From Hormiphora californensis (lineage: Eukaryota; Animalia; Ctenophora): DNA of 64,000 nucleotides. The stretch covers positions 372,001-436,000 of the forward strand of contig CM035355.1 of the NCBI GenBank assembly GCA_020137815.1, given 5' to 3'. Below, in pieces: positions 1-63,502 of this stretch (position 1 is its first letter; every line of letters starts with the position of its first letter). Below the pieces are notes generated by a model, which did no database searches, was not told the origin of the DNA, and saw only the letters and a program-made list of their open reading frames with translations. Made by a program: the position numbers and the translations under genes.

Positions 1-1215
1 CCGCTGTTACATTCTCTGGGCTCCCCTGGCAGTAGGACCTCATCTTTACTCAATGGGTCCTTTAAATGTCCTTTGGATTACAATGAAAAAAAAAAACAAA
101 AGGAGACGCCCCTAAACTACTGAAGCACCGAGGATAACCAACTGACTGCCATGGCGGTAAGCAGAATAAATTAAGAACTAAAAACCCTACTAATATTTGT
201 AGAGGACTTGAATCATGAAATTCTCCTCACTGCTGCGCCTCCAAAGGCGTTTGCTCTTAGTGCGATTCTCGGGACTGGTTTGGATTTTTGGTTTCTTTGT
301 TCTTTCAACAAACCAATTATACCTATCTGAATGCGCTCTTCATGCTTTACATTCCTCAGTTGCCCACAGGTTGTTTTTAATGTTATTTCTCTTTACTGTT
401 GATCTGGTAGAACCACGGGACAGTTTAGTGTTTATTTGGCAGCGAAACCATTTTCAATTGAATGATCACCCACTCTCCCTTGTAACGCAGTTACCCCTTC
501 CCTTGCCGGCGGGAAGTGTGACTGTCTTCGAACTCCCCCTACAGCTATGTACCTGATCCAATCCCCTCACGCGTCTTGATCGCATGACACGATCGCACCC
601 TCCAGGGTATCAATGACCTGGATAATTCATGGAGCTTGGAACAAGGAGTTTCGCAAGACTGGAGGAAGAGTGGAATGCTCGAGCACAACTACGTGCAATC
701 TCCCCATGATGTCAACCACCATCAATACACCATCCCAAAACACTTACCTAGAAACCTCTCGAACTTTCTGTTTGAAACTGTTCACTGTAAATCTGCCAAC
801 AAAGCGACTCACCGAATACAAGCCCAGAGGAGGTTGAAACAGGGACTGTGTGTCTACTGTGGGACTTAAACTCTTGGACGTTTTCCCATAAAAACTCCAC
901 AGATAAACATATATGTGAGCATTCGAAACAAGCCATTTGATCTAAGACAATTTCGAGGATAATAACACTTTTTTGCTATTTGACAATTCCATATTATTAT
1001 TGTTCCTTTTTGAATGTTAGTTCCTCAACAAATGAATCTGCTGTGGTTCTGTGTACTAGCATAAAATAGCATCTCCAAAGTAAACCGTGTGGAGAGACGG
1101 TGCATTGCATTGCATTGTCATGGGGCAGACCGCGAATTAGGTATACCCATTGATTTTCTGAGCGTGCCCGGCGACCCGATCTTTTCAAAGTATGGATGTG
1201 ATGAGAGTAGAGAGG
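1..1215 (+). pseudogene. Inverted, indel-rich copy of the 3' (7TM/C-tail) exons of the adhesion GPCR; alternative haplotype/read or degraded duplicate
   Basis: Reverse complement of ~11645-12790 plus ~14240-14410 (e.g. CCGCTGTTACATTCTCTGGGCTCCCCTGGCAGTAGG; [10 protein letters not shown]). It has frameshifts and lacks the two MITEs found in the other copy's intron. Confidence 0.8.
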
Positions 1216-3200: not shown

Positions 3201-3819
3201 GTTGTTTTGACTTTGTTTTTCAAGAACGACTTCCAACCACATAAAGACCTTCGGAAGGCGATTTATGATCTCTCCCGTCATTGATAGAGTAAAAATGTCC
3301 AAGCAAAGAACAGTCCTATGGTAATGGCGATGATGATGATGATGATTGGGTTTGTTCCTTGACCGTCAGGCCCTATTTGGAATTCTGGCAAAAAGAGTGC
3401 ATTTATGGCGTCTGGGAGTACTAAACTTTGGCAGTTACTATACAATTGATGAAAGAGTGTTGAGTTGGAGGTGTTATGTGAATAAAAGGTTTGTTCTAGG
3501 TATGGCTTCAAGCCACGGCATCTCTTTTCATTTCCTTCCCCCTTTCCTGTCAGCACGGTCTACTGACAAGTGTCAAAATGGGTAATGGGCTACCAAAACG
3601 AATTTCTATTACACCAAATCCCTGCAGGAGTACCTCTACTATTAAAATGTGGCCACCAAACCGGGCACCGAGATTACGATGGTGTGTTATCCACAGTCAC
3701 ACTGAGTGTTCGACTACCACATGCGGCAATGGTACCAGTCCCACTTCTCCGGTTGACCTCAATCTGAGTTCTCCATGATAGGTTATGTGTGTTATGCGTA
3801 CAGCTACCCCAAGCGCCAC

Positions 3820-4770
3820 CTACCCCTCCTTCCCTTCCCTTCCCTTCCCTTCCCTTCCTTCCTTCTTGCCCTTCCCTTCCCTTCCCTTCCCTTCCCTTCC
3901 CTCCTCGTCCCTTCCTTCATTCCCTTCCCTTCCTCTTCCCTTCCCTCCCTTCCCTCCCTTCCCTTCCCTTCCCTCGTCCCTTCCCTTCCCTTCCCATTCC
4001 CTTCCCTTCCCTTCCCTTCCCTTCCCCTTCCCTTCCCTTCCCTTCCCTTCCCTCCCTTCCCTTCCCTTCCCTTCCCTCCCCTTCCCTTCCCTTCCCTTCC
4101 TCCCTTCCCTTCCCGTCCCTTCCCTTCCCTTCCCTTTCCCTCTCCCTCCGTTCCCTTCCCTGCCCTTCCTCTCCTTCCCGTCTCCCTTCCCTTCCCTTCC
4201 TCCTTCCCTTCCCTTCCCTTTCCCTTCCTGTCCTTCCCTTCCGTTCCCGTCCCTTCCCTTTCCCTTCCCTTCCCTTCCTTCCCTTCCCTTCCCTTCCCTT
4301 CCCTTCCCTTCCCTTCCTCTCCTATCCTCCCTTCCGCTTCCTTCCGCTTCCTTCGCCTTCTTCCCTTCTCTTCCCCCCCTTCTCTTCCCTTCTCGCTCTG
4401 TCTCTCCCTTTCTCTGTGCCCTTCTCTTCCTTCTCGTTCCCTCTCTTCCTTCTCTGGCTCCGTCTTCTTGTCCCTTCTCTCCCCTTCTTCTTCCCTTCTG
4501 CTTTCTGTCTCACCTTCTCTCCCTTCTCTTCCCTTTCTCTTCCCCTTCTCTTCCCTTCGCTTCTCTTCCCTTCTTTCTTTCTCGTTGCCTTCTGCTTTCT
4601 TCTTTCTCGTCTCTTCCACGTTTCTCTTCTCGATCTTCTCTATTTTTCCTTCTCTTCCCGTTCGTTCCTTCTCTTTCCGCCCTCTCATTCTTTTTTTACT
4701 CTCCTTCTTTGCGTCTTTGCTTCACTGGAATCTTCCTCCACCTTCTCTTCTCGGTCCTTTCTTCCTTCTT
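3820..4770. repeat. (CTTCC)n pentanucleotide / polypyrimidine tract, degrading rightwards
   Basis: Direct inspection. It produces spurious PSLPF and GKGRE ORFs. Confidence 0.95.
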
Positions 4771-6219
4771 TGATATTCCTCATCTATGGGTACTTAATGC
4801 CTTCCTTCTTTCCGTACCTTCTAGATCCGGTGGTTTCGAAGTTTGTCACTCTTCCTTCTTCATTCTTTCTGATCGTCTTAGTTCTGTCCTCTCTTCCAAT
4901 CCTAGCCTTCTCTCTTACTCTTGCCCTTCGCGCCCTTGGATCTTCCTTTCTACCCCTCGACTGACTTAATTACGATCTCTTACTTCGGCCTTCTCTGCTT
5001 GTCGTCCTTCCTCTTCTTGTATCCCTGCCTAGTGTATGGCATTACCCCCGATCGAAGGCAATACAAAGCGATACGTCTTGCTAGACTCTTCATTTCTATA
5101 TACTCCGAATCTTAATAGTCTAAGTCCTCCCATAACTCGTGTCTGTACTCTTCCCTCTCTCCCTTCTCGGTCCAGTATACTTATTCATCATTGCTCATCG
5201 AATGACACTTCCATTCTTCTAATAGCCGGATACGTGTCTCTTCCACTGTGACTTCCGGGGTACTCACATTTTAGTCCCATCATTCGTCTTGGCCTCCATC
5301 AGTTCTCTATCTCTGCGATTCCAGCGTTGCAAATTCTCTAGACGGATATTTCCTCGTTCCATCAGGTCTCTCTCGTGGTGTCGTTCATCAGTGACTATCG
5401 ATGTGATCATCTTGCCTCGTTTCTGGTTTCTGTTCAGTAAGTCAGTCAATCCTTCTCGTTGATCATCAGTTTTCCACCCAGAGATTACTATGGCGTATGG
5501 CACCCTAATCCTGTGCCCATCTCGGACATTCTTCTGCATGTAGGCCTGCTTTGCTGCACTACCTGTAGTCTGTGGGTATTCGCGTGAAATCGGGGGCGCT
5601 TAGATAGTCTAGTAACTCGGTGAGCAGATGTCTCCGTTCTCCCTTTCATTTCTGAGGCTTCCTAGTTCATTCAAGGATTGTCCTGGAACCCCTGTCTTGT
5701 AACGTCTGCCAGAACTGATTGTCTACAGAATTGATGGTCTGTAGTTGCCCTGATGCTAGTTCTCTAGTATGTTCCCAGGCGTCCCTTATCTCGTGTATCC
5801 AATTCCGATCACATTGCACGTTAGATCGAGTCACATGGCAATGCTCGTTCTCTTTGCCTCTGGCGCATCGCTTCTAAATAGCATTTTCTGCTTTGACCAC
5901 AGGGTAGTGGCACCTTCTATCTAGCCGAACTTCTCGTTCTCTGACCTATCTACTTTCTCCTTTCGGGTGGCTTACCCGTTCTCTTGCTTCTTGAACGGCT
6001 TTGATGACCTGCTGGTATCTTCCTTTTATCCCCGTGTCGCAAATGACTCATTCTTTCCTGTGAGTTCTCTTGCTTTCTTCCTTCTCTAGTTCCCTTCATC
6101 TGCTCTTGTCGTCCTTATCCTTGCCTTCTCCCTTCTCTTGCTTCTCAACTTATCTGAGCTTCCTCCTCCTTCTTCCCTTCTCTTTCCGCTTCTCTTCCCT
6201 TCTCTTCCTCCTAATCATT

Positions 6220-6918
6220 CTCCCTAAATTCTCCCTAAATTCTCCCTAAATCCTCCCAAATTTATCCCTAATTTATTCCTAATTTATTCCTAATTTATCC
6301 CTAATTTAATCCCTAATTCTCCTATTCTCCCTACAATTCTCCCCTAAATTCTCCCTAAATTCTCCCTAATTTCTCCCTAATTTATTCCTAATTTATTCCT
6401 AATTTATATCCCTAATTTATCCTTGCCTTGTTCGACCCTCCCTCCCCCCGCCAAAAAAACAAATTCTCCCTAATTCTCCTAAATTCACCTAAATCTCCCT
6501 AAATTCTCCCTTAGTTATCCCAATATTTACCTAATTTATTCCTAATTTATCCTAATTTATCCCTAATTCCCCTAAATTCTCCCTAAATTCTCCCTAAATT
6601 CTCCCTAATTTATTCCTAATTTATTCCTAATTTATCCCTAATTTATCCCTAATTTATCCCTAATTTATCCCTAATTTATCCTTGCCTTGTTCGACCCTCC
6701 CTCCCTTATAAAATAAAATAAAAAGGTTTGAACAAAACAAATTTATCCCTAAATTCTCCCTAAATTCTCCCTAAATTCTTCCTAAACTCTCCCTAAATTC
6801 TCCCTAAATTCTCCCTAAATTCTCCCTAAATTCTCTCTAATTTATCCCTAATTTATTCCTAATTTATCCCTAATTTCCCCTAATTTCTCCCTAATTTCTC
6901 CCTAATTTCCCCTAATTT
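6220..6918. repeat. ~10-11 bp minisatellite CCCTAAATTCT / CCCTAATTTAT with a telomeric CCCTAA core
   Basis: Dozens of tandem units, interrupted twice by CCTTGCCTTGTTCGACCCTCCCTCCC (~6421, ~6680). Confidence 0.9.
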
Positions 6919-8259
6919 GGTAACTTCTTCTGTTATTGTAACCCCTAATCCCCAATTCCCTTTTTAGGTGTGATTGGAGGAGTGATGACTGTAATCCTTT
7001 AAATTGTTGGACAGGAAAACACAGCTATATATACCGCAAAGTGATGGAGCACATCTTGGTCCAGATAGATCAGCCATCGGGTGTATCTTTTGCCCAGCTT
7101 ATTACACTGTTTACTTCAATGGACTATTTTTTAATTTTTATAAATGTGTGGTGGGGGGAGGGCTCCCGTATTAAAACCTTATTTCCGAGAGTGCTCGGAT
7201 GTACATTAATAAATACGCTCTCTGTCGCCAAAAGTACACTGTGCTATAAGGCACTTAAAACAACCAATTACTTCAGTAGTGTCCTCTCTCTCAGTCTTCC
7301 TCTGAACCCTCGAGGTGAAAGAGTGACACTCCTCGCCATGGAAAAAGATAATCTCAAGCGAATTTAACTCACAATCTTTGTATCTTTGTTCCGCAAGAAG
7401 CGGGAGAATTCTCTCTTGTATATAAATGATGATGTTTTAAATTGTTTATGTTTTAATATATTTGCAGTGTTTACCATTTTATTATCCATATCAGTTTAAG
7501 TTATTGGTAAACAAATACAAAGAATAGTGTCGTTGAATAATTAAAACATGTGTGTAGATAAATCTGTCTTTCTCTCTGTCTCTCCCTACCCCTCTACCTC
7601 TCCTCTCTCACCCTCTTACTCGATTTCTATCTCCATCAAACATGTTTTAAACTGTGAGTTTGATATCGGATTACTGAAAACCTTGGAAATGGTCATGAAA
7701 TGAGGAAGAAATTATCAAACATGATTTAGACTATAATTGCCAGTGCTCTGTCTGGGTGAAATCTGTCCAAAATGAGGTCTACTTACCTTGCGCGCGATAT
7801 TCATAGGTCTTGCGCGTGATGAAAGTAAGCATTGTTATCGTTCTAAAAAGACGCGCCTCCATGCAAAGTGCCCTAGGCTCAAAAGCCTAATTTGGAACCT
7901 ATTTTGATCAAATTTTAAACTGTATCTTGTGAACACATGAATTTAAAACACTAAGGTTTTTACTAGACTCAAATCCGATCTATCAATCAGAAATGAGAGG
8001 CATTTGTCCGTTTAACTGGCAAACAGGGGTTTAATTGGCTTCATTAGTCATTTGACCCGGGTACAAACACTTTTTGAAAAAAATTTTTCCACATGCTGTT
8101 CATAAACTGCCCTTCTTCACTTCTGAATAGGTCACAAAAACGTGCCTTTTTGGGGGGGTATTTTCCCCACTAGGTGTTTAGCTCGCGGAACTGTCTATAA
8201 AATGTAACACGCGATTTAAAAATAAGAAAACGACGCAGTTTTACGCCGCGCAAATTTGA

Positions 8260-8630
8260 AAATATGGCTCGGCGGTGTGTTTTTGACACGAAGCGAAGTC
8301 TTGGCATGCGCTGCAGACCCCAAGTGCGCGCGTTTTCCACGGCTTCTTTAGGGCCTGTAGCATAGGCCAAAGCGAAGTCTAAAAAACCCGGCCAGCGTTA
8401 AAATCTGGGTGTTTTGGGAGTGCTGACAAACGGTTTTTAGGGTTAGGGCTAAAGTAGGGTTAGGGTTAGGGTTGGGGTTAGGCCTTGACATTCCCTACCA
8501 GAAAAACTTTGAATCAGCCAAAACGGTTGAGTGGTTTGGCGGTTAGAGCCATTTTAGTGAATCAACTTTTTTGGCAACGCGCACCTGTAAACAGGCCTCC
8601 AAACACCCAGATCGTAACGGCGCCCTAAAA
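8260..8630 (+). mobile_element. Copy of the modular repeat family with TTAGGG-like modules
   Basis: Near-identical to 36340-36430 plus 36741-36890. Confidence 0.65.
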
Positions 8631-9017
8631 ACCCTAAACCCTTTTTTAAAAGTCCAAAATTGAAACTTAAAAGGCGCTGCGACAAACTCGACAGCATTTT
8701 TGACCTCAAAATTTGAGGTATCTCATCAGGGGGTTTAGCGATGACTGCGGAAAGTTTCACATAACCAAAATGGAGACCTTTTTAGCTTGGGTGTTTGTGC
8801 GGGAAAGACGGAAGTGAACTATGAATCGCTTTCCAATATGCCATTACCCCCGTACTCCGCAACTTATTTGGGTTAGTTAATGATGTACTCGATACTATTA
8901 GCCAAAGGAGCTTGTTCGGCAGATGGTTCGAAGCAAAGGCGGAATCGCGGGTCATTTTTATCTAAATTCTAAATTCTAATTTCTAATCATTTATCCAGCT
9001 TAGTTGTAAATGTTGTT

Positions 9018-9812
9018 ATGATATTCAAAAGTAGGATCCTTCAAATTTCTTATCTTGGACGATACACGCTTTCCACAAGACCAAATCCCAGACGTCCATC
9101 GCCCCTGAAATCCGTCAAACATTCAAGCCGAAATGAGATCTTCAGCTCTGGCAAAGGGATGGAGAGTAAAATGTTACAAAAACTGCACACTGGTTCAAAA
9201 ATTGCCAGTGCCGTCTTTCTGCCTCAATTTGCTCTTAACTTGACCATCGGTGTGCCTTACTTGGATTATTTCCACTACAGCACTGTGCCAGCACTGATCA
9301 TATGTGGCTTGTTCACACATCCCTTCTCCGTTTACCTCGGCTCATGGACGGTCAAGGAGCTCAACTGTGATCCGGGAATGAAAACTGTTTCCATGGTAAC
9401 CCACGCTGGTAACAGTTATCCTGACATTCCTGTAACAGCCTGCCAGTTCAGCGCCGCCAAAAACAGTTTAACGATAGACAACAATGTATTCAACTTCCAC
9501 AAAACAGGTGTGTTTGTTCCAACAAGACTGAAACTCTTCGAGCAGAGGGCATCGTCGGGCAGTGTCCCACACTCCATCGATATTTCGACACTGACAATTG
9601 TACAGCAAATGTTCAACATGCAGTATTGGTACATGGTAGCGGGGACATGTCTCGTTCTCGCTCTCACGTATCTATACTCCGGGTACACAGACGGGCTTTA
9701 CGTGTGGTGGAATGTATCCAGTTTTATGCAAATGAAAGTGCTCGGGTTTAGCACCCTCGAGGACAAGTTGAGTCATTTAAAGTTGGAAAAAAATGCCGCA
9801 GAAGTAGAATGA
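9018..9812 (+). CDS. Single-exon predicted mitochondrial membrane protein, TMEM70/TMEM186/TMEM223-like (264 aa)
   Basis: Clean ORF with an R/S/K-rich, acid-free presequence-like N-terminus, two hydrophobic segments followed by a V.EL.....KTV...T beta region, and a further C-terminal TM. Family assignment is by eye. Confidence 0.55.
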   Translation: MIFKSRILQISYLGRYTLSTRPNPRRPSPLKSVKHSSRNEIFSSGKGMESKMLQKLHTGSKIASAVFLPQFALNLTIGVPYLDYFHYSTVPALIICGLFTHPFSVYLGSWTVKELNCDPGMKTVSMVTHAGNSYPDIPVTACQFSAAKNSLTIDNNVFNFHKTGVFVPTRLKLFEQRASSGSVPHSIDISTLTIVQQMFNMQYWYMVAGTCLVLALTYLYSGYTDGLYVWWNVSSFMQMKVLGFSTLEDKLSHLKLEKNAAEVE

Positions 9813-9956
9813 GTTTCTTGTCTAATTATTTATTTGCTGTGAAGTGATTTGTAAGTTATTGAAAAGTTTTTTGCTCAAGTTGTTGTTAGATTTAACTGTT
9901 ATCACACTGTTAATTGTTACCTTACCTTCTCTTTAATCCCTCATTATTATCCCAGA

Positions 9957-10592
9957 ATGGACACTGTCTGTGTATCAGCGTCCTGTATCTCTACAACTAT
10001 CATTGCCTTTCTCGCCTACAAACTATCCCAAAAACCAAAACCTTCCCCTCCTCAACATCCCTCTACGGAGGCACTGTTCTTCCCTGATCGAGGTATCCAA
10101 TGTCCCTACTACAAAACCTCACGAGGCTGCCTCAACACCTCCTGTGAGTACCTCCATGAACCTCTCTCCCTGCCGCGGTTGTGCGAGATTCTCCGCTCAG
10201 CACAACACACCCTTGACGTGTGTATGTTTGTTATATCATCCCCTGAACTCATGAGTCTCCTCGTGCAGATCAAGGAGAGGGGTGTTAGGGTGAGATGTAT
10301 CTGTAATGCAGAGGATATTGACGGACTTCAGCCTATCAGATCAGCAGGGATCCCTTTCCGGTTTGACCGATCTGACTACCTCATGCACAACAAGTTTGTC
10401 GTGATTGATTCCCGGGCGGTAACCACGGGATCGTACAACTTTTCTCGGGGAAACGGGAACAGAGAGAATGTGATTATCAGTTATACTAGGAATGTTATTG
10501 ATGCGTACCAGGCTGAGTTTGAGGAAATGTGGCAGTTGTACAGTGGGAACGATTTTAGATATAACTGTTTTAAAGAGAAAGTGTACAGGTAG
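9957..10592 (+). CDS. PLD6: Mitochondrial cardiolipin hydrolase / zucchini piRNA endonuclease (211 aa)
   Basis: N-terminal TM anchor, EALFFP, CCCH zinc wing (CPYYKTSRGCLNTSCEYLH), LDVCMFVIS, single HKD motif MHNKFVVID...TTGSYNFS...NRENVII. Confidence 0.93.
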   Translation: MDTVCVSASCISTTIIAFLAYKLSQKPKPSPPQHPSTEALFFPDRGIQCPYYKTSRGCLNTSCEYLHEPLSLPRLCEILRSAQHTLDVCMFVISSPELMSLLVQIKERGVRVRCICNAEDIDGLQPIRSAGIPFRFDRSDYLMHNKFVVIDSRAVTTGSYNFSRGNGNRENVIISYTRNVIDAYQAEFEEMWQLYSGNDFRYNCFKEKVYR

Positions 10593-10836
10593 TCGTTGGT
10601 TGCATTCGGACATACATTTTCAGTTTGTACCAGTTCATCTGCAATGTTTGCATGCAGTAACATGTTACATGAAACTCCCTTTTTAACCTTTTTCACGAGT
10701 TATATTGTATTTTATCTCAATTATGTTTCATTTTATAATTTTCAATGGAGTTTTTGGTTGTCTGCTTCTATGCGTTTTAAATCTGTATTACCATTCGATT
10801 TACTGTGATTAACCCCCAATTTCTTGTCCTTAGACC

Positions 10837-10930
10837 ATGAAAACTCGACGAGCCAGAAAAAAGGCATACCTGAAGGCAAAGAAAAAAGCGAAGAAAGCCA
10901 TATCTACAGCCCCCAATGTGACGCCAAGAG
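10837..10930 (+). CDS. Probable start of a third gene (basic N-terminus MKTRRARKKAYLKAKKKAKKAISTAPNVTP), lost in AG-rich noisy sequence
   Basis: Polypyrimidine-AG acceptor (TTCTTGTCCTTAG) followed by ACCATG; 30 codons of unique sequence before the microsatellite. Confidence 0.35.
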
Positions 10931-11340
10931 CGAGAGCGGAGCGGAGAGAGGAGAAGCGAGAGAGAGAGAGAGGAGAGAGCGAGAGAGCGGAGAGAGAGGG
11001 GGGAAGAGAGAGGGGAGGAGAGCAGATAGAGAGAGGGAGAGAGAGAGAGAGGAGGATGAAGGGGAGAGAGGAAAGGAGAGGCAGCAGAGAGAGAGAGAGA
11101 AGCGAGAGAGCCGAGAGAGAGAAGAGAGAGAGAGAGAGAAGAGAGGAGAGGGGACGAGAGAGGAGAGAGAGAAGAGAGAGAGGAAAGAGAGAGCGGCAGA
11201 GAGGAGAGAAAGTGAGAGAGCAGAAGGAGGAGAAGAGAAGAGAGAGGAGAGCAGTCGAGGAAGAGAAGAGAGAGAGAGAGTAGACGAGAGAGAGAGAGAT
11301 GTAGAGAGAGAGAGAGGACGAGAGAGATGAGAGAGAGGAG

Positions 11341-11376
<36 letters not shown>

Positions 11377-11660
11377 AGAGAGAGAGATGAGAGAGAGATG
11401 GAAGAGAGGAGAAGAGAGCGATAGAGGAGAAGAGAGAGAGAGAGAGCGAGAGAGAGAGAGAGAGAGAGCGAGCGAGAGAGCGAGAGGAGCGCGAGAGAGA
11501 GAGCAGAGAGCATAGAGCGAGAGAGCGCTCGATAGCGCTCGCTCTCGCGATCTAGCGAGATTAGAGGAGATATCGACTCTTCTCGTCTCGCGGCAGCTCA
11601 TCTCGCTTCAGCGCTCTAGCCTCCGAGATATCGCTATATCTGCTAGATCTCTCTCTCTCA
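10930..11660. repeat. Degenerate (AG)n microsatellite
   Basis: Direct inspection. Confidence 0.9.
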
Positions 11661-12026
11661 CTCCATACTTTGAAAGATAGGGTGCCCGGGCACGCTTACG
11701 AAATATCCAATTCCAATTCTAATTCGCGGTTCGCCCCTGACAATGCAAATGCATGCACCGTCTCTCACACGGTTTATTGGAGATGCTATTTTATTGCTAG
11801 CTACACAGAATCCAAGATAACTATTATTTCGTGACGGAACTAATTATATCAATTAAAGGAACAATGATAATATGAATTGTACAAATAGCAAAAAAGTGTT
11901 ATTTATCCGAAATTTTCTTAGATCAAAATGGCTTGTTTCATGCTTCACATAATGTTTATCTGTGTAGTTTTTATGGAAAACCCGTCCCAAGAGTTTAAGT
12001 CCCACAGTTAGACACACAGTCCTTTT

Positions 12027-15000
12027 TCAACCCTCCTCTGGGCTTGTATTCGGCGAGTCGCTTGTTGGCAGATTTACAGTTGAAAGTTTCCTAACAGAAG
12101 TTCGAAGGTTTCTAGTGTAAGTGTTTGATGGTGTGTTGATGGTGGTTGACATCATGGGGAATGATGCAGTTGTGCTCGAGCCATTCACTCTCTTCCTCCA
12201 GTTCTTGATCAACTCCTTGTTCAGAGCTCCATGCATTATCAGGATCATGATACCCTGTGAGGGTGGATCAGTGTCAAGCGACTCAAGACGGTGAGGGTGG
12301 ATCAGTTAATAGCTGTAGGGGGAGGAGTGGGTATCGAAGGGGGAGGAATGGGTATCGAAGACACTTCACACTTTGATACCCTGTGAGGGTGGATCAGTGT
12401 CAAGAGACTCAAGACGGTGAGGGTGGATCAGTTAATAGCTGTAGGGGGAGTATCGAAGACACTTCACACTTCGCGCGCCGGCAAGGCAGGGCTAACTTCG
12501 TTACCAATGGGAGGAGTGGGTTATCATTCAATTGAAAAATGGTACATGCTAATAACACTGAACTGTCCCGTGGTCTACCAGATCAACAGTAAAGAAATAA
12601 CATTACATACCTGTGGGGCAACTGAGAGAATGTAAAGCCATCGAAGAGCCGCATTCAGATAGGTATAATTGGTTGTTGCAAGAACAAAGAAACCAAAAAT
12701 CCAACCAGTCCCGAGAATCGCACTAAGAGCAAACGCCTTTTGGAGGCGCAGCTGAGGAGGAAATTTCATGGTTTCAAGTCCTCTAAATATATAAAGTCGG
12801 ATTTTTTGAAGTTGTCACCCCCCTCTTCGTGCGCGGGATGTTTTTGCGTGTCACATCACATGTTAACGTGTGGTGTGCGCGTCAAAATTGATAAATTTCA
12901 TATGCGCGGTCATTTTGGGGTGACAACTTCAAAAAATCCGACTTTAGTAGGGTTTTAAGGGTACACCTCGGCAAAATTTTTGTCGAGTGCCCGCTTAGCT
13001 CTCCATATGGGGTTGTAGGGCATACCAAGCCGACCTCAAATATGCAATTTTAGCCCTTAACTCGAATTCATATTTTTGCTACAGCCCCTCAAAGTTTGAC
13101 CCTAAAAACCGGTTTTTAAGGTCCCTAAATTTTATTTTTAGGGCTAGAAAGCTGAAAATTTAGGGATTCATAGAGGATACCAAGGTGTATAGCTCAAATA
13201 GAAATTTTTTGAAATGGAGCTCAATTTTTTGTCTGAGACTATTTTACTTTTTTTGACTTTGAGGCCATATTTGGACATGTTCCTATGGACCGTTAAGGCT
13301 CAAAATTGGATATTTGGTGCTCCTAACAATTGTCAAAGTAGCCACAAATTTTCAGGAGGTCCGAATTTAAAATGTGGCTTACAGGTTTCTTTTTGTAAAG
13401 CACATATTTTAGGAAAACTTAAAATGGCTATATCTCAAAAACGGTAGGTCCTAGCGATCTAATTTTGTGCTAAATCGATTCAGCGGGTCCGATTTTGGGG
13501 GGGTCGTCTCATAGACATTTTGCTCTAAGTCTAACCGTTTTTTCAGAAATCGTATTTTAAGATTTGAACATGTTTAGCAGAAATAGGTAAGATTAGCTCT
13601 AGCTAGAAGCATTTCTGCTAAACATGTACAAACCTTAAAATACGATTTCTGAAAAAACGGTTAGACTTAGAGCAAAATGTCTATGAGACGACCCCCCCAA
13701 AATCGGACCCGCTGAATCGATTTAGCACAAAATTAGATCGCTAGGACCTACCGTTTTTGAGATATAGCCATTTTAAGTTTTCTTAAAATATGTGCTTTAC
13801 AAAAAGAAACCTGTAGGCCACATTTTAAATTCGGACCTCCTGAAAATTTGTGGCTACTTTGACAATTGTTAGGAGCACCAAATATCCAATTTGAGCCTTA
13901 ACGGTCCATAGGAACATGTCCAAATATGGCCTCAAAGTCAAAAAAAGTAAAATAGTCTCAGACAAAAAATTGAGCTCCATTTCAAAAAATTTCTGTTTGA
14001 GCTATACACCTTGGTATCCTCTATGAATCCCTAAATTTTCAGCTTTCTAGCCCTAAAAATAAAATTTAGGGACCTTAAAAATCGGTTTTTAGGGTCAAAC
14101 TTTGAGGGGCTGTAGCAAAAATATGAATTCGAGTTAAGGGCTAAAATTGCATATTTGAGGTCGGCTTGGTATGCCCTACAACCCCATATGGAGAGCTAAG
14201 CGGGCACTCGACAAAAATTTTGCCGAGGTGTACCCTTAATTCTTAATTTATTCTGCTTACCGCCATGGCCGTCAGTTGGTTATCCTCTGTTGCGTTCAGC
14301 TGTACCGGGGCTTTCTTTGTTTTCATTGTAATCCAAAGGACATTAAGAAGGACCCATTGGGTAAAGATGAGTCCTACTGCCAGGGGAGCCCAGAATGTAA
14401 CAGCGGCCGCTGGAAACTGGACAAAACACCTGGAGAGAGTTACTGTTAGTGCAGGGCAGGAAGAACCGACCAAAACAAGTAAACAACCAATCAAAACTCG
14501 TTATTTAGGTCATGTGACTGGTTATCAGCCAATCAGGGACCAGTATTTCCTGATTCGGTCGGTTCCTGGTGCAGGGATGAACTTGAGGTGCAGTGATCTA
14601 CTTACGTTTTTCCGTTTGCATACTCCATGCGCTTCCAGGCGACACCAATTATTGGGAAAACAAGGGGAACTCCCCAGGCGCAAGCATTCCATTTCTGGAA
14701 GTATTTACTGGTATAGTGCGGAAAGATTATCATAAGGCTGGACCGCATGTTCCAAGCCTCTAGAACCATCCAAGCCAACTGACACAACCAGAGATAGTTG
14801 GTCAGCAGTGCAACCTGGGATGTTATTTCTTGTGAAGACTATTTTGCAACTACAATATATATGTTGATTGATCAGTTTGACACGTACTGTGAGACACCCA
14901 GGGCTAACGTCATTGTCGTCAGGTGAGGTGAACCGGTCCATTATTAGGAAGATTATGATGGCTAGGACGAGAGAGCAAGCCAACATTAAGTTCAACCGGA

Positions 15001-18000
15001 TGGGCTTCTTTTTCATTAACACCCTGATGGTGGAAGATAATATTGTAGTTAGTTGGAGGATGTACTGCAGTTCTTAATTGAATTTTAGTACATACTGCTA
15101 AATCGCCGTTTTTTTATAAAAGAAAGGTACGATTATGGTAATTGTATTGGTACAGTTAAAAAGTGGATGATATCGTTGAAAGTGTTGATATATTACTTAT
15201 TCGGAGCAAAGAGTAGGAGGAGAACAACAAGACTGACCAGACTAACTACCAGAAAGACGGTCGATGTTATAATCTCCCCACTCGGGTAATCTACTTCTAT
15301 ACTCTGAAATTGACATTACTGATGTTAGTTTTGAACTATAAGTATGTGGGATGCTCCCACGTTGAGTTTTTGTCTTAAAACTGGGCATATACATTTGGTA
15401 TGCTAATTGCTTAACCACATACCATCATAACAGCGAAGCTAGTAAGGTGGGTGCAAGTACATTGGACCTCTTGGGTGCCCTCCGTAATGCCATTATCCAC
15501 TGTGTCACACCCATCTTTTAACCATCTCTCACTCTCCCCTGTGAGATTAGATAGCAACATTGTTAATCGAATAAGGTGCTCGATCAATTGATGTGTCGAG
15601 TAGGCCTGGGGACCCAACTGAATCTTGTAGTTATGTGCTCAATTTTATCACCACATATTTCTTACCATCGTAATATTGGCATGTTACACTGGGCTTGAGG
15701 ATGAGTTTTCGTTCAATGCCATTCACAATCCTCTTCTCGATTTCTGTCCTCTAAATAGTGGACTATTTATTATTTAAACCGAATCGAACACGACCCTCCT
15801 TCTTGTTTTGTTGCTAGGCAATCTCCTTCCTGACTCGTTACTTACGTTAACTCTGTACTTCAGAACGACAGATTCCCCATTCGTAAGTTGTCTCTTCACA
15901 CGATCCTTACTGTACACATTCACCTCTCCTATCACTCCAGTGACTGATATCACGTTGCTCTGGGTAGAAAATAAAGCAATCAAATTTTTACCGTCAGAGA
16001 ATTAGTTGGGAGCTTATATAGCATGATAATGCTGTAGTGTAATTGTAAGTAGTATGGAACGTAATGGAGAATGGAGATATAATTGTGTCTAGAAACATCT
16101 AGTTTCATAATATACAGGGGCGTCGACACGGGTTGGGGCCAGGTATGGCAGCCGGTGCGAAGCACCGGTATTATATGTGGCATACAAATATGCGACCGGA
16201 GCGCCCGAAGGGCGCGTAGGGAGCTCCGGCAGGGGGTTTGGGGGGCGCAGCCCCCCAACCGGGGTCCAGGGGCGGGAGCCTCTGGTGGGGGTCTAGGGGG
16301 CGAAGCCCCGGGAAAATTTTTTGGTCTAAGCAAGCATTTTAAAGCATTTTCCCAATAACTAATTGTAATATTTTGAACAATCTTTCCCTGTATTTTAGAC
16401 TGATATCACCAGCGAACGTATACAATAGCAGTATTTATCTCCCTTTTTTCTTTTCCCTTTTTGGGAAGCCCCTCAGCCGGGGTCCAGGAGGCGAGGGCCT
16501 CTGAATCAAAGTCTGATGGAGGTCTAGGGGGCGAAGCCCCCGGAAAAATTGTTTAAGCAAGCATTTTAAAGCATTTTCCAGAGAAATTCACCTTTGCCTG
16601 GGAATTCCAGGTATGGCGGCCGCCATACCTGCCATACCCGTGTCGACGCCCCTGATATAGCCCTCCCTATAACACTCCCTATAACACTACCCCTTACTAC
16701 CACACACCACCCCCAGCATGATGAGAAAGGGGCAGCTCCGACAATGGTGTAGCAGTGTGTTCTAATCGCTTATTCCGTATAAGGTAAATACGATTGACAA
16801 TGGTCCCCCGCCCTGTTTTGGCATGATCGCCACCACAGCAGAGAGAAAATACACACACACTCTATTTCTGTGTGCTTGCAGTGTGTGTTTGAAAAATACT
16901 GCACCCCACCCTACTATTCTTCCAATTTCACGTTGTCAATTCACTGCTTTTTGTTTTGCTTACCTCTTCCTTTTTCAAGTTCAAATCCTCAGCAATGATA
17001 TCGTATTTATCCTCCCAGTCGAGTCCGTACAGAGGTGTATCAGTAGTTGACTGATAGTTAGGGTACATAGAGTCAATGGTGGAGACTTCCACTGAGATGG
17101 CATCCTTACTACTTGACTTCACAGACGCCTATCATTTGGGAATGTTGATATTTGTTAGTCATATGGAGCCTCACTGACACAATTTATTTGGATACTCGTA
17201 GTCGTGAGGTAGCTCTGTGCTGCAGCCTGCAGTTTCTAATCTATCACCATACATATAATAAAACGATAGAGTGCAGTGTACCTCGAAAAAGACTGCCGGT
17301 TTATCATCGAAAAGGCCCTCACTCTCTATGTCTGCAGTCTCTAGATTCTTGTCATTGCCACTAAGGGAGATTACCAATACGGACTCCGATGTTGATGGTG
17401 ACCCCGTGACTGCTGCAATCGCTGAAAGGGTTTGACATCATCAACATATTGTTCTTTTCGTTTTGAATTAAAAAATTAGATTTAAAATAAATAAGATTTA
17501 AAATTAGATTATGGTCGCTATCATGGTCACTATACCTACCAAGTGCTTCTGTCTTGACGAACGATTCAGAAGAGTTCTTTTCTTGAGCTCGTATTACCAT
17601 TGATTGTGCAAGCGAATTAGTAGCCTCACGAACTCTGAAATATCATTTTGTTTGTACACATGTGTAATTGGAGGATATCTTAACAAATGTCAATAATATT
17701 GACACTCGAGCACGTAATGAAATTATACTCATGGCATCACTAACACGTCACACCTCATAGAACACATGTCACAGTACACTCTAGCAGGCTTGATGCTTTC
17801 TTTCGCATTGATTCCACTTTATAAGGAACAACTTTAGTTTTATAGTAGGACTCACTTAAATTCTCTCTTACCCTGCTGCTGCCTCGACGATTCTTTCTTC
17901 AAATTCGTCTTCACTTTCCAAGTTTGAAACTTTTATGATTTTGTTAGCCGTGTTTGCCAGGTTTTGAATTGTCTGTGTGAGGAAATAGGTGATCATTGTA

Positions 18001-20197
18001 AATCATAATTCCGAATGTATGCAAACAAAGAACGTGTACTTAGTTACCATGGTAACCAATGAACATACCTCATCAGTTAGATCGCTAGTAAGGTTGTTTG
18101 AGATTTGCTTGATAACATCAGCCGTATTCTCTACATCAGTACTACTCATTTTCGTAGTATCAACATCAGATATTTCTTGAGAGATCGTGTTTTGGTTGTC
18201 ATCCGTCAGGGTTTCATCGACTTCCTTTTGAAATATACCGTTTATAAAAGGTTTCATGCAATTATTACTCTTAACGATACAAAATCTCTCTTATAGTCCT
18301 ACACTTAAATCGGCTGGGCCTACAGCTGGGGAGAGTGTGTGTAGAGCTCAATTACCTTCAGGATATTCTTAATTTCACCAGAAACTTCAGTTTGGCATTC
18401 GGTGAAGTCTGTTGGGAGGAACCCTTTACCTTCAACAGGGTCCAATGGGCATAGTTTTCTCGCCATTTTCTCATTCTGATTAGGATTTGAAGAATGAAGG
18501 ATCACTTGATTATTTCATCTGCTCTAATCAGAGGTAAACACCAGTGATAAAAACTAGGTCGCTGCTACTGGTATATTTGTGACTACCATTATTTATTAGT
18601 GCAGATAGGGCTAGTTATGATGGACTCACATTGTAGGCACACGGTAGAGTAACTTCGTTTCCAGGAACTGCTTTTGGCCAAGTATAGTTTCCATACTTTG
18701 TATTTAAATCCTTGTCCGCTTCGCACGCTATACGGTGATAGGGGAGGTAAGATATGAAGAAACTATCTGTTTCTCAGTGTCTTAGGGTATGTCGATAACT
18801 AAACACCCAGGATTTTTGATCAGCTAATAATTAACTACGGTATGATAACTCTCAGAGTATCGTTATGATACATGTCGCCATGCCTATAATCCCCATCATG
18901 GTATGACCCCATGGCGCAAGCTTCTCTATTATAGATCCCATATTGGCTGCTATTGTACCATCTCATCAAATTAGATATCTATTGTGACAACATGGAGCAA
19001 TATGTATAGTTCTTACCAGGGACATCATGGAGCAATATATATAGTTCTTACCAGGGACATCCCCAGCAGCACAGAGGGGTTCCTCTTCATTGCCAGAGCA
19101 ACTTGCACACTCCGTAGATCCTTCCTCAGCAGTGAACTCACCCTCTGGACAATTCTCACACTGCACTTGACCTGTCCAACATTTGGATTTGTTATGCATG
19201 TGAACGTCGAACTAAATTCTGGTATAGGTAGGGGTGGTAAGCCACCTGATCCCGATACAAGGGTGTGATATATGGCATTATTATTATTATAGTGACGTAA
19301 CCATTAACCAGCTGCTATACCATCCCCCAATTTACAATTATATTTATTGAGGCTTTACCTTTTTTAGGCTGGTATTGGTTGACCGGACAATCAGAACATT
19401 CGCTGACAATCCCATTAGCACTATTGAATGTTCCCACTGGGCACTTTAGTATGTCAGAACCACTGTTATAGTATCCTGGTGAAACAGTTAAACTGCCTGA
19501 GAGAATATAGTAAGATGTCATTTTAAGGTCGGACTACCTGCGTCCTGCACAATTCAGGGGATAATAATACTGCTGCATTATATTGAATGCTTTGGTAAAC
19601 AACTTACTGAATTCGTTCGCCAGGACAAACAGCTTCTTCAGTGCGAATGCCATGTTAACTTTTAGTGTAATTACAGCCACGGAGCTGGTTGCAGAACTAG
19701 ACTGACAATTGTAAATATATTGTTCATCAGAAATTTTATCCGGAGAACAAGTTGTTGTTTTTTCATCGCTTGTCTTCGTTTTGATCTCCTATTGTATGTT
19801 ATGGGGTTATTAGCGGTGTATATTAACATTAAACATATACTACAACTGTTTACTGTGAACAAGGAACGTGTCACCCAAATTATGTGTATTTACAGCACTC
19901 GACTCATACAGTTCACTGTCATCCTCAATGAATAGTTTTACATTGTAGTTGATGAAAGTTTGAAAATATATTTTCACTAATTTACTTCTATATCGTTAGT
20001 TATATTAGCTAGTAAGGGCTTGATAAATTAATAATTATTGGTGTTTGGAAAGGAGAAAATAATTCAAGAGAGCGGAGAATAAGAGATGTATTAGACGGAG
20101 GAGGGTTGGCCAGGTGTGTTGGGGATGGGCAAAATATGAGCAGGTGTGGCTGATGCTACACACGACTATGTGAGTGTGTACCTCTGTATATAACACA

Positions 20198-20277
<80 letters not shown>

Positions 20278-23200
20278 TAATATTTGCATACGATTGAGAA
20301 CAGATCGGCGAAAACGGCGCGGTGGTGGTGAAACGGTGAACCTTGCATTAGTCTATAGCCTATAGTTCTTACCAAGGGGTAACTTTCAGTGGCTTGTTTC
20401 TTTTTAATAGGTAAAACCGGTTCCGTTAGTGATAGTGGTGGAGTGGTGACTGCTTCATCAAGTTCAGTCACTCCATCCGAGATTTTCTTTTTTCTATCTT
20501 CAGTCGCTTGTTCCGATCCTGTAAAAACAGTTTGGTTTTGAACTAGTACATGAGGGTTTCTGATCTCGTTGTTGCTGGCTTACCTATTACAATGACTCTG
20601 TGGATAGTGAGTTTCTGGTTTGATAAATCACCAGACGAATATACCCCGGACTTCAGACCATACACATCGTCACTTTTTGTTTTACTAAACAGCTGAGGAT
20701 AAGAAAGTGATATAGACATTGTTTAGAATTTATCCTCGCTGATCAATACTAGGATTAATACTATATTATAGTATTAGGCTTACAGCATCGTCCGTGTCAC
20801 CAAGATCACTAAAAGTGCTTGATGTTGCTATTTGTTCCTCTGAGGAGAGAGTCGAGCCAAGACAGTTGGTCGAATCTGTTTCCTTGAGGCACTGGGAACA
20901 TTTTGATTTTCCAGCGGTAGAAAACGTGAAATAATCACATGATTTGCACTCCGTGGCACCTAAGAAGTTCATGGATTACATAGGTAAATCATCAATGTTT
21001 ACTGTTTACATTTATATGTCAAGTTGTCCGCCAATTAGTTAATACATTGTCTAAACTAGCCGAATTACATCATTTAAGAGGATCACAGTCTATCAGGTAT
21101 CAAGCCTTATATCTTACCAGCCTCATCGCTATAGGTGTTTGCGGGGCAATCAAGACATCCCCCAGTAGTGCTGTTAAGGTATTGACCCGGCTTGCAATTG
21201 TTTTCTGAAAAGAAATACACAGTAAATTGATGATCTCCATATTTAGTTTGGAAAACAACTCTCCTTTGTGTATGCACCCAACATCCCCCAACTACAACTT
21301 CTGCTTTAAAAGGATACGGTGAACGTAATCATTATCGTAAACCTCAAATATTCATGGTCATGGCTATAATAAAACATATGACTAAGTATGCAATGTAGCC
21401 CATGGATAGGACCTGTGTGTGCTCATGCGAAAGACATTTTATCCTGAGCAGGGCACTTTTTCTCAACCCTCGTCGTGAGAGAGGTTTTTTTTAATTTAAA
21501 AATATAAGTCTCTGAACAAGTCTACACGCAGCGTGTAACAAATCAATACACACAACTTCAAGTGATCTCGGTGCAAGAAGTCACACACTGTTGTTGTTTA
21601 TGTTATTCATGTGTAAAAGCAATCTACACTCTGCAACGTAGAAGAAAGCAAGAAGCTAGGCCAGTCGACATGTGAACATAGTCGATAACCTAGAGCCACA
21701 CACATGTGTGTGCGTGGGTGTGTAACAGCGTATGTCGTAGTGTAGTGTGTTCTTGAATGTGCAAGATAATTTAACGGTTTTTGCTTCCACATGCCATTAT
21801 GCCAACATGCCAACAAACTGGCTTTTGATCAATGATCAAACCTAAACAAAACACAAACTTGACCCTCTTTGGGTTTTTTAAATTTTGCACGGTCGAATCT
21901 CTGATAAGATACAGAAATATGATCTTGGAATATTCCCAAAGTCTGAAAGCTGAGACATGAGTCTTTTAAAATTGGCCATGTGCAGCAAGAATAATCAATA
22001 GGTATTTGGGATACCAGGGAAAAGGCAGCTTCATGAAGCTTCACAAACAAAGCAAACCCAAACGAAAATGGACAGAAATCTAAAAGTATATAATTATGTC
22101 CCCCAAAACAAAACCACTTCGTATATGCAGCTTTCACACACTTTTAGCATATCACACAACTGTTCACACGTCACACACAGCTCTGTTCACACATATGACT
22201 GTTTACACACTGTACTTACTTATGTCACACTTGGTTCCGAAAATACCAGGATAACAGTCACACTTCCCCTCGTAGGTTGAACAGTTGTGACGCTGCGAAC
22301 CTGTCTCGTGGCATCCACAATCTGGGGGGGGGGGGTCAATGTAACATGGTAACTTACCAACACATTCCCTAGTAACCATGGTAACTTACCAACACACTCT
22401 CTAGTAACCATGGTAACTTACCAACACACTCCCTAGTAACCATGTTAACCATGGTAACTTACCAACACACTTCCTAGTAACGGGATCCAGATATGCATGG
22501 TTATATCTGCACCCGTCACACGTTCTCCCCTCGTATCGTGTCCTTCCGGGAATACACTCACACTGTCCAGTTACCTAGAGGGATGGGGTTCATGTGGAGC
22601 TGTCACACAAAAAGTTGGGTAACGCGTTACTTATCACGCGTTAGATGAGTACCGCGTTAGATGAGGTATACCTGGTCACATTTCTTGCTCTTGTTGATTG
22701 TTCCCCATGGGTTGCAGTTACACGGCTTGCATCCTTCACCACTGTTGATGCCATAGGTATCACCCTGACAGAGAAAAATGTTAATTTGAGAGCAGGCTCT
22801 CAACACACAAATGATTGATCTCCTCCCGTTTTATCTTACCTCGCATTGAGAACAGTCCCGTCCAGTAACACTGTCCAGACAGAAGCATTGTCCGGTCAGG
22901 TTGTCACATGTTGAGTTAACACTTCCACCCTCATAGCAACCACATACTGAGAGAGTCAGATAGTGTGATTACAGGGTGTTGCTAAGTAATTGAACCACCT
23001 CATTATTTTCACGAGGAACTCTGGAAATTTTCAGGTCTGCTGCATCGTGACCTGTTTCTAAACAACTAGAGCCCAACGTTATCAATAGTAACAACGGCTG
23101 ATACAAACGAATTCGTGACACGAATTTCATGTGTTGAAAAATCAATTTTCGCCCTTTTGAGATACTTTTACCCCATAATTCGGCCTATTTCTCAAAAAAT

Positions 23201-35994: not shown

Positions 35995-36985
35995 GACGGC
36001 CAGCGTTAAAACTTAAAATATGGGTGTTTCGTGAGACGTGAGTACTGACAAACGGTTTTTTAAGGTTAGGGCTAAAGTAGGGTTTGGGTTGGGGTTAGGC
36101 CTTGACATTTCCTACCGGATAAACTTTGAGTTAGCCAAAACGGTTGAGTGGTTTGGCGGTTAGCAGTGCACACCTGTAAACAAGCCACGAAACACCCAGA
36201 TCGTAACGGCGCCCTCCGAGATGGGTTGAAAAGCGCTGCCTTATCCCGCGCTGCGGGCCAGCAGCGTTTGCTAAAAATCTGGGTGCCTTCCATTGCTAAC
36301 AATTCATTTGAAAAGCGCTGCCTTATTCCTGCGTGGGCCGGCCAGCGTTAAAATCTGGGTGTTTTGGGAGTGCTGACAAACGGTTTTTTAGGGTTAGGGC
36401 TAAAGTAGGGTTAGGGTTAGGGTTGGGGATAGGCAGGGGCGGTGCGCGGCTTTCAGCCGCTCTGGTCAAAATGCGGCCGAAACATTTTTAACTCACGCGT
36501 TCCGTCAAAATACCCAATGCGGATGGTCCGCATTGGCTATTTTGACGTAGCGCGCCGATCAAAAAATACTGCGACGGCAAAAAAACCTTTGTGGCACGCG
36601 GATTTCACTAAAAATCTCATTTGAAACATCAAATTTTGAGAAAAATTGACCCTTTTCCTTGAATTTTTTCTTTTTCTCTCCGTGATCCAAAGTAAAAATG
36701 CGGACGCGTCCGCATCGTCCGCATGGCAGAGCCGCCCCTGGGGTTAGGCCTTGACATTCCCTACCATATAAACTTTGAATCAGCCAAAACGGTTGAGTGG
36801 TTTGGCGGTTAGAGCCATTTTAGTGAATCAACTTTTTTGGCAGCGTGCACCTGTAAACAGGCCTCCAAACACCCAGATCGTAACGGCGCCCGCGTGGGCC
36901 AGCAAGGTTTGCCAAACAATTCATCGATTTCGGCGGTCGAGACGGGTTAGGGCTGTTGTTAGGTTCGGGTTAGGGTTTTGTTTGG
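35995..36985 (+). mobile_element. Tandem modules of the TTAGGG-like repeat family
   Basis: Two ~300-bp units homologous to 8390-8625. Confidence 0.7.
36434..36740. mobile_element. hAT-like MITE inserted in the telomere-like module
   Basis: TIR CAGGGGCGG...CCGCCCCTG; 8-bp TSD GGGATAGG/GGGTTAGG (7 of 8 match). Confidence 0.8.
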
Positions 36986-46850: not shown

Positions 46851-46950
46851 NNNNNNNNNNNNNNNNNNNNNNNNNNNNNNNNNNNNNNNNNNNNNNNNNN
46901 NNNNNNNNNNNNNNNNNNNNNNNNNNNNNNNNNNNNNNNNNNNNNNNNNN
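46851..46950. other. Scaffold gap (100 N)
   Basis: Run of N. Confidence 1.

Positions 46951-58194: not shown

Positions 58195-63502
<5,308 letters not shown>

What the first reader, a model, noticed from the sequence alone, without database searches (positions are those of the whole stretch)
8990..10930. Candidate trans-spliced operon: mitochondrial membrane ORF + PLD6/zucchini + third gene
Seen: three co-oriented starts separated by only 144 bp and 244 bp of T-rich DNA. Each is directly preceded by a polypyrimidine-AG acceptor with no obvious upstream exon (TTATCCAG 8998 then ATG 9018; CCCAG 9955 then ATG 9957; TCCTTAG 10833 then ATG 10837). No AATAAA lies between genes 1 and 2. Established: spliced-leader trans-splicing resolves operons in several animal phyla and occurs in ctenophores. 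Inference: a polycistronic unit couples the piRNA nuclease to another mitochondrial membrane protein.
Basis: partly seen in the sequence, partly recalled or inferred. Interest (0 to 1): 0.7.

Follow-up and report, generated by a model that had tools for sequence, protein, structure and literature searches.

The report
Candidate comb-jelly trans-spliced operon
In a comb jelly (Pleurobrachia-type) genome, three unrelated genes lie head to tail only 144 and 244 bases apart, each starting just behind a splice-acceptor signal, and they are likely made as one RNA that is cut into separate messages by adding a spliced leader, though no RNA read available here shows the leader or the shared transcript.

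Summary
The organism is Pleurobrachia-like: gene 2 is PLD6/Zucchini, 97% identical to a P. bachei model. Gene 1 is likely a TMEM70/186/223-type inner-membrane protein. Gene 3 belongs to a Pleurobrachia family of unknown function, and the window's copy breaks into noise after about 27 codons. The three acceptors exceed chance and have longer AG-free zones than hand-picked intron acceptors. Neither upstream gene has AATAAA, as in tunicate operons. But an isolated gene in the window also starts behind an acceptor, spacer 1 holds a donor-like GTAAGT, and six runs (contigs only) show no leader at any acceptor. Leader trans-splicing is documented in this family; my searches found no report of ctenophore operons. 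Verdict: probable but unproven SL-resolved operon (about 0.55). A functional link of piRNA nuclease and gene 1 is unsupported. The scan noted similar clusters in other genomes, none labelled ctenophore.

The parts
8627..8939 (+). Unique DNA between an upstream dispersed repeat and acceptor 1; likely promoter and outron of the unit (untested). Holds one GCGGGAAA (8799) and one CGGAAG (8809); E2F-like and ETS-like labels are recalled, weak.
   Evidence: donor-like sites here score only 5.4 and 5.2
8940..8998 (+). Acceptor 1: 59-nt AG-free zone, CTAAT branch-like motifs at 8976 and 8983, CAG
9010..9021 (+). Out-of-frame upstream ORF (MLL-stop) overlapping the gene 1 start, T at -3
9018..9812 (+). 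Gene 1, single coding exon, 264 aa; predicted mitochondrial inner-membrane protein of TMEM70/186/223 type (basic presequence-like N-terminus, helical hairpin inside a split PH-like fold)
9813..9956 (+). Spacer 1, 144 nt, 47% T, no CpG, no AATAAA/ATTAAA; gene 1 RNA reaches at least 9839
   Evidence: run X2, record 9
9851..9856 (+). Donor-like GTAAGT; would define a 105-nt intron to acceptor 2 if used
   Evidence: score 6.8; 20 hand-picked donors of the window score 3.9-10.4; a site of 7.0 or more lies in 10% of random 100-nt stretches
9891..9955 (+). Acceptor 2: 65-nt AG-free zone, branch-like TTAAC/TTAAT, CAG, 1 nt before ATG
9957..10592 (+). Gene 2, single coding exon, 211 aa: PLD6/Zucchini (N-terminal hydrophobic anchor, C-x8-C-x4-C-x3-H, HxKxxxxD, GSxN)
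10593..10836 (+). Spacer 2, 244 nt, 44% T, eight runs of 4-5 T, no AATAAA/ATTAAA, no donor-like site above 2.9
10752..10833 (+). Acceptor 3: 82-nt AG-free zone, TTAAC at 10809, TAG, 3 nt before ATG
10837..10917 (+). Gene 3, intact 5' part (about 27 codons); member of a Pleurobrachia family of 228-240 aa proteins of unknown function with a very basic N-terminus
   Evidence: 83-84% identity over 25-30 aa; diverged copies in runs X3 and X4 read on in frame like the P. bachei models
10931..11550 (+). Purine-rich low-complexity tract where the rest of gene 3 would lie; likely noisy long-read sequence, or a real disruption
   Evidence: (no residual coding signal above shuffles)
11778..12305 (-). 3' end of a convergent adhesion-GPCR gene with AATAAA at 11795 and 11778; closes the unit on the right

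Best explanation
The three co-oriented genes are likely one transcription unit: a promoter upstream of 8940 would make a single precursor, and a spliced leader would be trans-spliced onto the acceptors at 8998, 9955 and 10833 to give three capped messages. The 3' ends of genes 1 and 2 would form inside the short T-rich spacers without a canonical AATAAA, as in tunicate operons. Shown: the layout, the acceptor motifs, the gene identities at sequence level, RNA-library contigs on genes 1 and 2. Inferred: leader addition, a single promoter, the precursor, the mode of 3'-end formation. The gene content looks like chance neighbourhood (an inner-membrane assembly-factor-like protein, PLD6, a lineage-restricted basic protein), not a piRNA-mitochondria module.
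For: Spacers of 144 and 244 nt stop-to-start, inside the <250-bp rule of the chaetognath operon annotation and shorter than the 417 nt of the experimentally proven Hydra RFC140-flp operon, which also has a T-rich spacer (PMC3273482, passages). Gene 1 RNA reaches at least 9839, leaving at most 116 nt for a 3' end, a promoter and an outron, 65 nt of which is the acceptor zone. All three starts sit 1-19 nt behind strong acceptors. AG-free zones of the four gene-start acceptors in the window (59, 65, 82, and 75 for the arrestin gene) exceed those of 19 hand-picked intron acceptors (7-66, median 29; exact one-sided p 4.5e-4), which suggests a separate class of acceptor. Spacer 2 has no donor-like site reaching the weakest of 20 hand-picked donors (2.9 against 3.9). 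No AATAAA/ATTAAA on the + strand from 8627 to 11851, whereas 3 of 4 other gene ends examined have AATAAA 155-252 nt after the stop and the fourth ATTAAA at 276 nt (background 14% per 280 nt; two of these four ends were called by eye); upstream cistrons of Ciona and Oikopleura operons lack AATAAA too (PMC1488885, passages). The family has a widely used leader.
Against: No leader was seen at any acceptor in 6 of 6 runs laid, all low-depth contigs. The three contigs that cross an acceptor are unspliced there: one over acceptor 1 (X3, 8892-9042, possibly DNA) and two diverged gene-3-type copies over acceptor 3 (X3; X4, an oligo-dT library). No contig crosses acceptor 2. The isolated arrestin-domain gene also starts 28 nt behind a strong acceptor (40993), so acceptors mark trans-splicing at best, not operons. 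Spacer 1 holds a donor-like GTAAGT. A promoter could lie inside the upstream gene. Donor and acceptor control sets are hand-picked, not RNA-verified. Gene 3 is broken in this assembly, so the third cistron may be dead. Synteny could not be tested.
Confidence: 0.55

Rival explanations
1. Three independently transcribed genes, each with its own compact promoter (in the spacer or inside the upstream gene) and a short outron, each SL trans-spliced as a monocistronic RNA.
For: More than half of Hormiphora long reads carry the leader, so acceptors at gene starts are expected everywhere; the isolated arrestin gene shows the same acceptor.
Against: At most 116 nt free in spacer 1; spacer 1 has no CpG and is 47% T; the window is otherwise gene-sparse, so three ends within 250 nt are not forced by compaction; no AATAAA for genes 1 and 2.
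Confidence: 0.2
2. Ordinary cis-splicing: PLD6 has a short non-coding first exon ending at 9850 (105-nt intron), gene 1 one ending near 8871, with or without a leader further upstream; or a read-through RNA is cis-spliced into a stable two-ORF message.
For: TTT|GTAAGT at 9851 scores 6.8, within the range of the window's donors; TGG|GTTAGT at 8872 scores 5.4.
Against: Such sites are common by chance (7.0 or more in 10% of random 100-nt stretches, 5.5 or more in 37% of 200-nt stretches); only 38 nt lie between the gene 1 stop and this donor; spacer 2 offers no donor; the start acceptors differ from intron acceptors in AG-free length.
Confidence: 0.15
3. Only genes 1 and 2 form a unit; the gene 3 copy is a broken, promoterless duplicate that landed behind PLD6 with its own acceptor and is not a working cistron.
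For: The family has at least two members in P. bachei; the window's copy loses similarity after about 27-30 residues and no coding signal survives in the tract; gene-3-type contigs in X3 and X4 match only from about 16 nt upstream of the AG and diverge further up.
Against: The space to the convergent GPCR 3' end (about 900 nt) fits a 228-240-codon gene; other stretches of the window look like raw long-read noise, so the break may be an assembly artefact.
Confidence: 0.1

Closest known systems
Hydra RFC140-flp operon (PMC3273482, passages)
   Same: Non-bilaterian animal; single-exon downstream gene; T-rich spacer of a few hundred nt ending in a polypyrimidine-AG acceptor; members of unrelated function.
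   Different: Proven by reporter constructs; has a putative polyadenylation signal in the spacer; two genes, 417 nt apart. Here three genes, 144 and 244 nt, no AATAAA, unproven.
SL-resolved operons of tunicates, Ciona and Oikopleura (PMC1488885, passages)
   Same: Upstream cistrons lack AATAAA; the same leader serves single genes and operons.
   Different: In Ciona the upstream 3' end coincides with the acceptor; the 3' ends here are unmapped.
Chaetognath operons (PMC12460157, passages)
   Same: Defined by <250-bp spacing plus leader; enriched in germline and housekeeping genes, which fits PLD6 and gene 1.
   Different: Leader reads were counted per gene there; none here. Their distance is between annotated genes, here between stop and start.
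SL trans-splicing in Hormiphora californensis (PMC8527503, passages)
   Same: Same family of comb jellies (Pleurobrachiidae); leader on 56% of Iso-Seq reads.
   Different: The word operon occurs 0 times in its main text; supplements could not be read.
PLD6/Zucchini/MitoPLD
   Same: Best PDB matches are mitochondrial cardiolipin hydrolase, E 3e-23; all sequence hallmarks present.
   Different: Activity and piRNA role untested in this animal.
TMEM70/TMEM186/TMEM223 family (bioRxiv 10.1101/697185, passages)
   Same: Short N-terminal part, two-helix hairpin, longer C-terminal domain; nearest Atlas cluster is named TMEM186 (PF06979 on 39% of members).
   Different: No Pfam hit for any of 8 family members; extra predicted C-terminal helices (201-242).

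Membership tests
SL-resolved eukaryotic operon | Co-oriented genes with very short spacing | tested here: met
   144 and 244 nt stop to start
SL-resolved eukaryotic operon | Splice acceptor in front of each downstream gene | tested here: met
SL-resolved eukaryotic operon | Acceptor is unpaired (no usable upstream donor) | tested here: inconclusive
   Met for gene 3 within spacer 2 (best 2.9); donor-like 6.8 site in spacer 1
SL-resolved eukaryotic operon | Spliced leader joined at the downstream acceptors | tested here: inconclusive
   6 runs, contigs only, low depth; no leader-like loose end; none crosses acceptor 2
SL-resolved eukaryotic operon | Polycistronic precursor spanning a spacer | tested here: inconclusive
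   No contig bridges either spacer; one oligo-dT contig of a diverged copy runs 55 nt upstream of acceptor 3, RNA or DNA
SL-resolved eukaryotic operon | One promoter, none in the spacers | not testable with these tools
   No CAGE, chromatin or raw 5' reads available
SL-resolved eukaryotic operon | An SL system exists in the lineage | not tested
   Taken from PMC8527503 and the listing of P. pileus in PMC4824033; no leader-like copy in the window itself
PLD6/Zucchini | Single HxKxxxxD motif with downstream GSxN | tested here: met
   H144-K146-D151, GSYN at 158; PLDc_2 E 8e-24
PLD6/Zucchini | N-terminal membrane anchor and CCCH zinc motif (feature list recalled) | tested here: met
   Hydropathy peak at residues 3-21; C-x8-C-x4-C-x3-H at 49-67, cysteines kept in 7 of 7 aligned
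PLD6/Zucchini | Endonuclease role in piRNA production | not testable with these tools
   4 papers listed for ctenophore+piRNA+zucchini, none read
TMEM70/186/223 | Two-helix membrane hairpin after a short N-terminal part, then a longer soluble domain | tested here: met
   Predicted: helices 48-76 and 89-108, hydropathy peaks at 62 and 90
TMEM70/186/223 | Detectable sequence homology to the family profile | tested here: inconclusive
   No Pfam hit; Atlas 0.93 with 202 shared features but recognition 2034, under the 2300 mark
TMEM70/186/223 | Mitochondrial inner-membrane location | tested here: inconclusive
   9 K/R and no D/E in the first 38 residues; best fold match a Tetrahymena complex IV chain, Z 9.5, rmsd 5.7, 136 aligned; prediction only

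The most novel reading that the evidence does not exclude
Probability: 0.3. Interest if true: 0.7.

Novelty: new member of a known kind. Interest (0 to 1): 0.45.

Why it matters
A 2021 methods paper states that operons have not been reported in ctenophores although they trans-splice (PMC7986045, passage), and my searches found no later report in the held library. A confirmed operon would add polycistronic transcription to the earliest-branching animal lineage and bear on whether operons follow wherever a spliced leader arises. It is directly testable with existing ctenophore long-read cDNA. The mechanism itself is known from several phyla, and the PLD6 link looks incidental.

Tried and rejected
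No whole genome is held for the window, so no genome-wide spacing or SL-gene survey was possible. The metagenome scan with PLD6 returned 5 loci of 28-39% identity, judged unrelated PLD-family genes and not read further. A 21-nt part of the Hormiphora leader has 0 matches in the window at 3 mismatches; Rfam finds nothing. Spacer 1 from 9840 and spacer 2 up to 10815 have no cover in any of the 6 runs: depth is too low to mean anything. Run X6 gave one 83%-alike PLD piece only. The 8746/9078 opposite-strand joint in X3 is read as a library chimera. I first read the GTGAG behind codon 28 of the gene-3-type contigs as an intron donor; rejected, since it lies in frame in the P. bachei models. I first read 11648-14406 as a transposon; rejected, it is the 3' end of the adhesion GPCR. 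Matching contig lengths among homologs of genes 1 and 2 gave no shared contig. Frameshift-tolerant alignment of P0012/P0013 to the purine tract and to the inverted copy at 1150-1600 scored no better than 8 shuffles each. Gene 3 family: no Pfam hit, no usable Atlas hit, model pLDDT 46, not searched by fold. P0019 (repetitive) was left out of the gene 1 alignment. Foldseek gave no match with E <= 0.001 for gene 1. Derelle 2010 and the P. bachei genome paper are not held; they and the unseen Hormiphora supplements may bear on whether ctenophore operons are in print. Word searches in PMC12221973, PMC11184263, PMC11797021, PMC10282587, PMC13498776 and bioRxiv 2023.08.23.554511 gave nothing on ctenophore operons. 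No complex prediction was run, as no binding is claimed.

Full report
Observation. Each acceptor has a branch-like YTRAY and an AG-free zone of 59, 65 and 82 nt. Under a strict rule, set after seeing these sites, 10 of 1964 non-repetitive ATG contexts of the window pass, four of them here; under the loosest rule 249 of 1964 pass, so three in three is unlikely either way. Additions: an out-of-frame ATG at 9010, a donor-like GTAAGT at 9851, and a break in gene 3.

Organism and genes. Gene 2 matches PLDc_2 (E 8e-24) and mitochondrial cardiolipin hydrolase structures (E 3e-23). Its nearest relative is a P. bachei model at 97% identity, followed by five unnamed proteins at 53-54%. It has the hydrophobic N-terminus, CCCH motif, HxKxxxxD and GSxN: it is PLD6/Zucchini by sequence. 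Gene 1 has one relative at 83% and six full-length ones at 20-26% over the alignment; some of these were called as single ORFs on contigs of 118-925 kb, so an intron-free coding region seems conserved. No Pfam family matches. The Atlas puts it nearest a TMEM186 cluster (0.93, weak by its own recognition score). The model (pLDDT 66.5) shows a helical hairpin inserted in a PH-like fold, and the best structural match is a Tetrahymena complex IV chain (Z 9.5, rmsd 5.7, 136 aligned), with complex I and IV chains also ranking first in Foldseek, none at E <= 0.001. With a basic, acid-free N-terminus this fits the TMEM70/186/223 inner-membrane family described in bioRxiv 10.1101/697185 (passages); that is a prediction. 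Among the listed differences of the diverged run X4, 10 of 18 in gene 1 and 15 of 18 in gene 2 fall on third codon positions (42 further rows were not shown). Gene 3 matches the N-termini of two P. bachei models of 240 and 228 aa with no known family. In the window it loses similarity after about 27-30 residues and enters a purine-rich tract with no recoverable coding signal. The convergent adhesion-GPCR gene ends near 11780, leaving about 900 nt, enough for a full copy; the window holds other noisy stretches, so an assembly artefact is likely but not shown.

RNA evidence. Six runs were listed, all as assembled contigs with small shares, and all six were laid. Oligo-dT libraries of two studies hold near-identical pieces of gene 1 (X2 9702-9839, X5 9396-9579) and of gene 2 (X1 10027-10241, X2 10283-10547); X4 holds a relative about 90-95% alike. 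No loose end resembles the published leader. One X3 contig crosses acceptor 1 unspliced (8892-9042; X3 may be DNA). Two diverged gene-3-type contigs (X3, X4) cross acceptor 3 unspliced and continue in frame like the P. bachei models. None crosses acceptor 2 or bridges a spacer. These data neither show nor exclude trans-splicing.

Internal controls. The arrestin-domain gene (38973-40965, minus) is isolated and also starts 28 nt behind an acceptor with a 75-nt AG-free zone: acceptors at starts are a trait of the genome, not a proof of operons. The four start acceptors have longer AG-free zones than 19 hand-picked intron acceptors (median 29; p 4.5e-4), which suggests a separate class such as trans-splice sites; the control set is not RNA-verified. 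A matrix from 20 hand-picked donors finds nothing usable in spacer 2 (2.9) but a 6.8 site at 9851 and 5.2-5.4 sites upstream of gene 1; such scores are common by chance. Three of four other gene ends examined have AATAAA within 155-252 nt and the fourth ATTAAA at 276 nt, against none on the + strand from 8627 to 11851.

Mechanism. Most likely one promoter upstream of 8940 drives a precursor through all three genes, a leader is trans-spliced at each acceptor, and the upstream 3' ends form in the T-rich spacers without AATAAA (0.55). Separate promoters with monocistronic trans-splicing (0.2), cis-spliced first exons (0.15) and a two-gene unit with a dead third copy (0.1) remain. That the genes receive a leader at all I put near 0.75. 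Nothing supports a functional module: predicted inner-membrane gene 1, outer-membrane PLD6 (location recalled), and an unrelated young family.

Literature. Seen as passages: PMC7986045 (operons not reported in ctenophores as of 2021), PMC8527503 (leader on 56% of reads, 718 genomic copies, operon 0 times; supplements unseen), PMC3273482, PMC12460157, PMC1488885, PMC4824033, PMC10282587, PMC13498776, bioRxiv 10.1101/697185. Word counts only: PMC12221973, PMC11184263, PMC11797021, bioRxiv 2023.08.23.554511. Searches listed no report of a ctenophore operon, and none of PLD6 in an operon; Derelle 2010 and the P. bachei genome paper were not available. Earlier notes of this scan hold nothing on this DNA and several similar unproven clusters in other genomes.

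Verdict. A real, well-formed operon candidate in a phylum where I found none reported; mechanism of a known kind; unproven at RNA level. Interest 0.45.

Noticed in passing
window 11778-29533, minus strand: Long multi-exon adhesion GPCR: Ig, ephrin-receptor-like cysteine repeats, laminin-EGF, GPS and 7tm_2 exons.
   Followed up: partly
window 1-1213 versus 11648-14406: An inverted 84-85% copy of the GPCR 3' end that lacks the two insertions at 12792-12946 and 12955-14239; paralog, other haplotype or noisy duplicate read.
   Followed up: partly
window 12955-14239 and 12792-12946: A 1.29-kb near-perfect palindrome (97.6%) flanked by TTAA, and a 155-nt inverted-repeat element, inside a GPCR intron.
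   Followed up: no
window 38973-40993, minus strand: Single-exon arrestin-C-domain gene with acidic tyrosine motifs (DIY repeats), starting 28 nt behind a strong acceptor.
   Followed up: partly
window 33724-34230, plus strand: Rab/Ras-family exon preceded by a tandem repeat of about 60 nt that duplicates the exon's first codons with their acceptor region.
   Followed up: no
window 8390-8626, also 1633-1882 and 36013-36891: Dispersed repeat with GGGTTA-like runs directly upstream of the cluster; covered by many diverged contigs.
   Followed up: no
window 6969-7001, plus strand: Possible short last exon of an upstream co-oriented gene behind an acceptor at 6968, followed by ATTAAA and AATAAA; called by eye only.
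   Followed up: partly
window 3800-6900 and 48500-54000: Stretches that look like unpolished long-read noise; a 100-N gap at 46851-46950.
   Followed up: no
window 61605-62681, minus strand: 358-aa open frame that resembles a LINE ORF1 (recalled resemblance; no Pfam hit above cut-off).
   Followed up: no
window 41740-43045: Inverted duplication giving two identical open frames on opposite strands.
   Followed up: no
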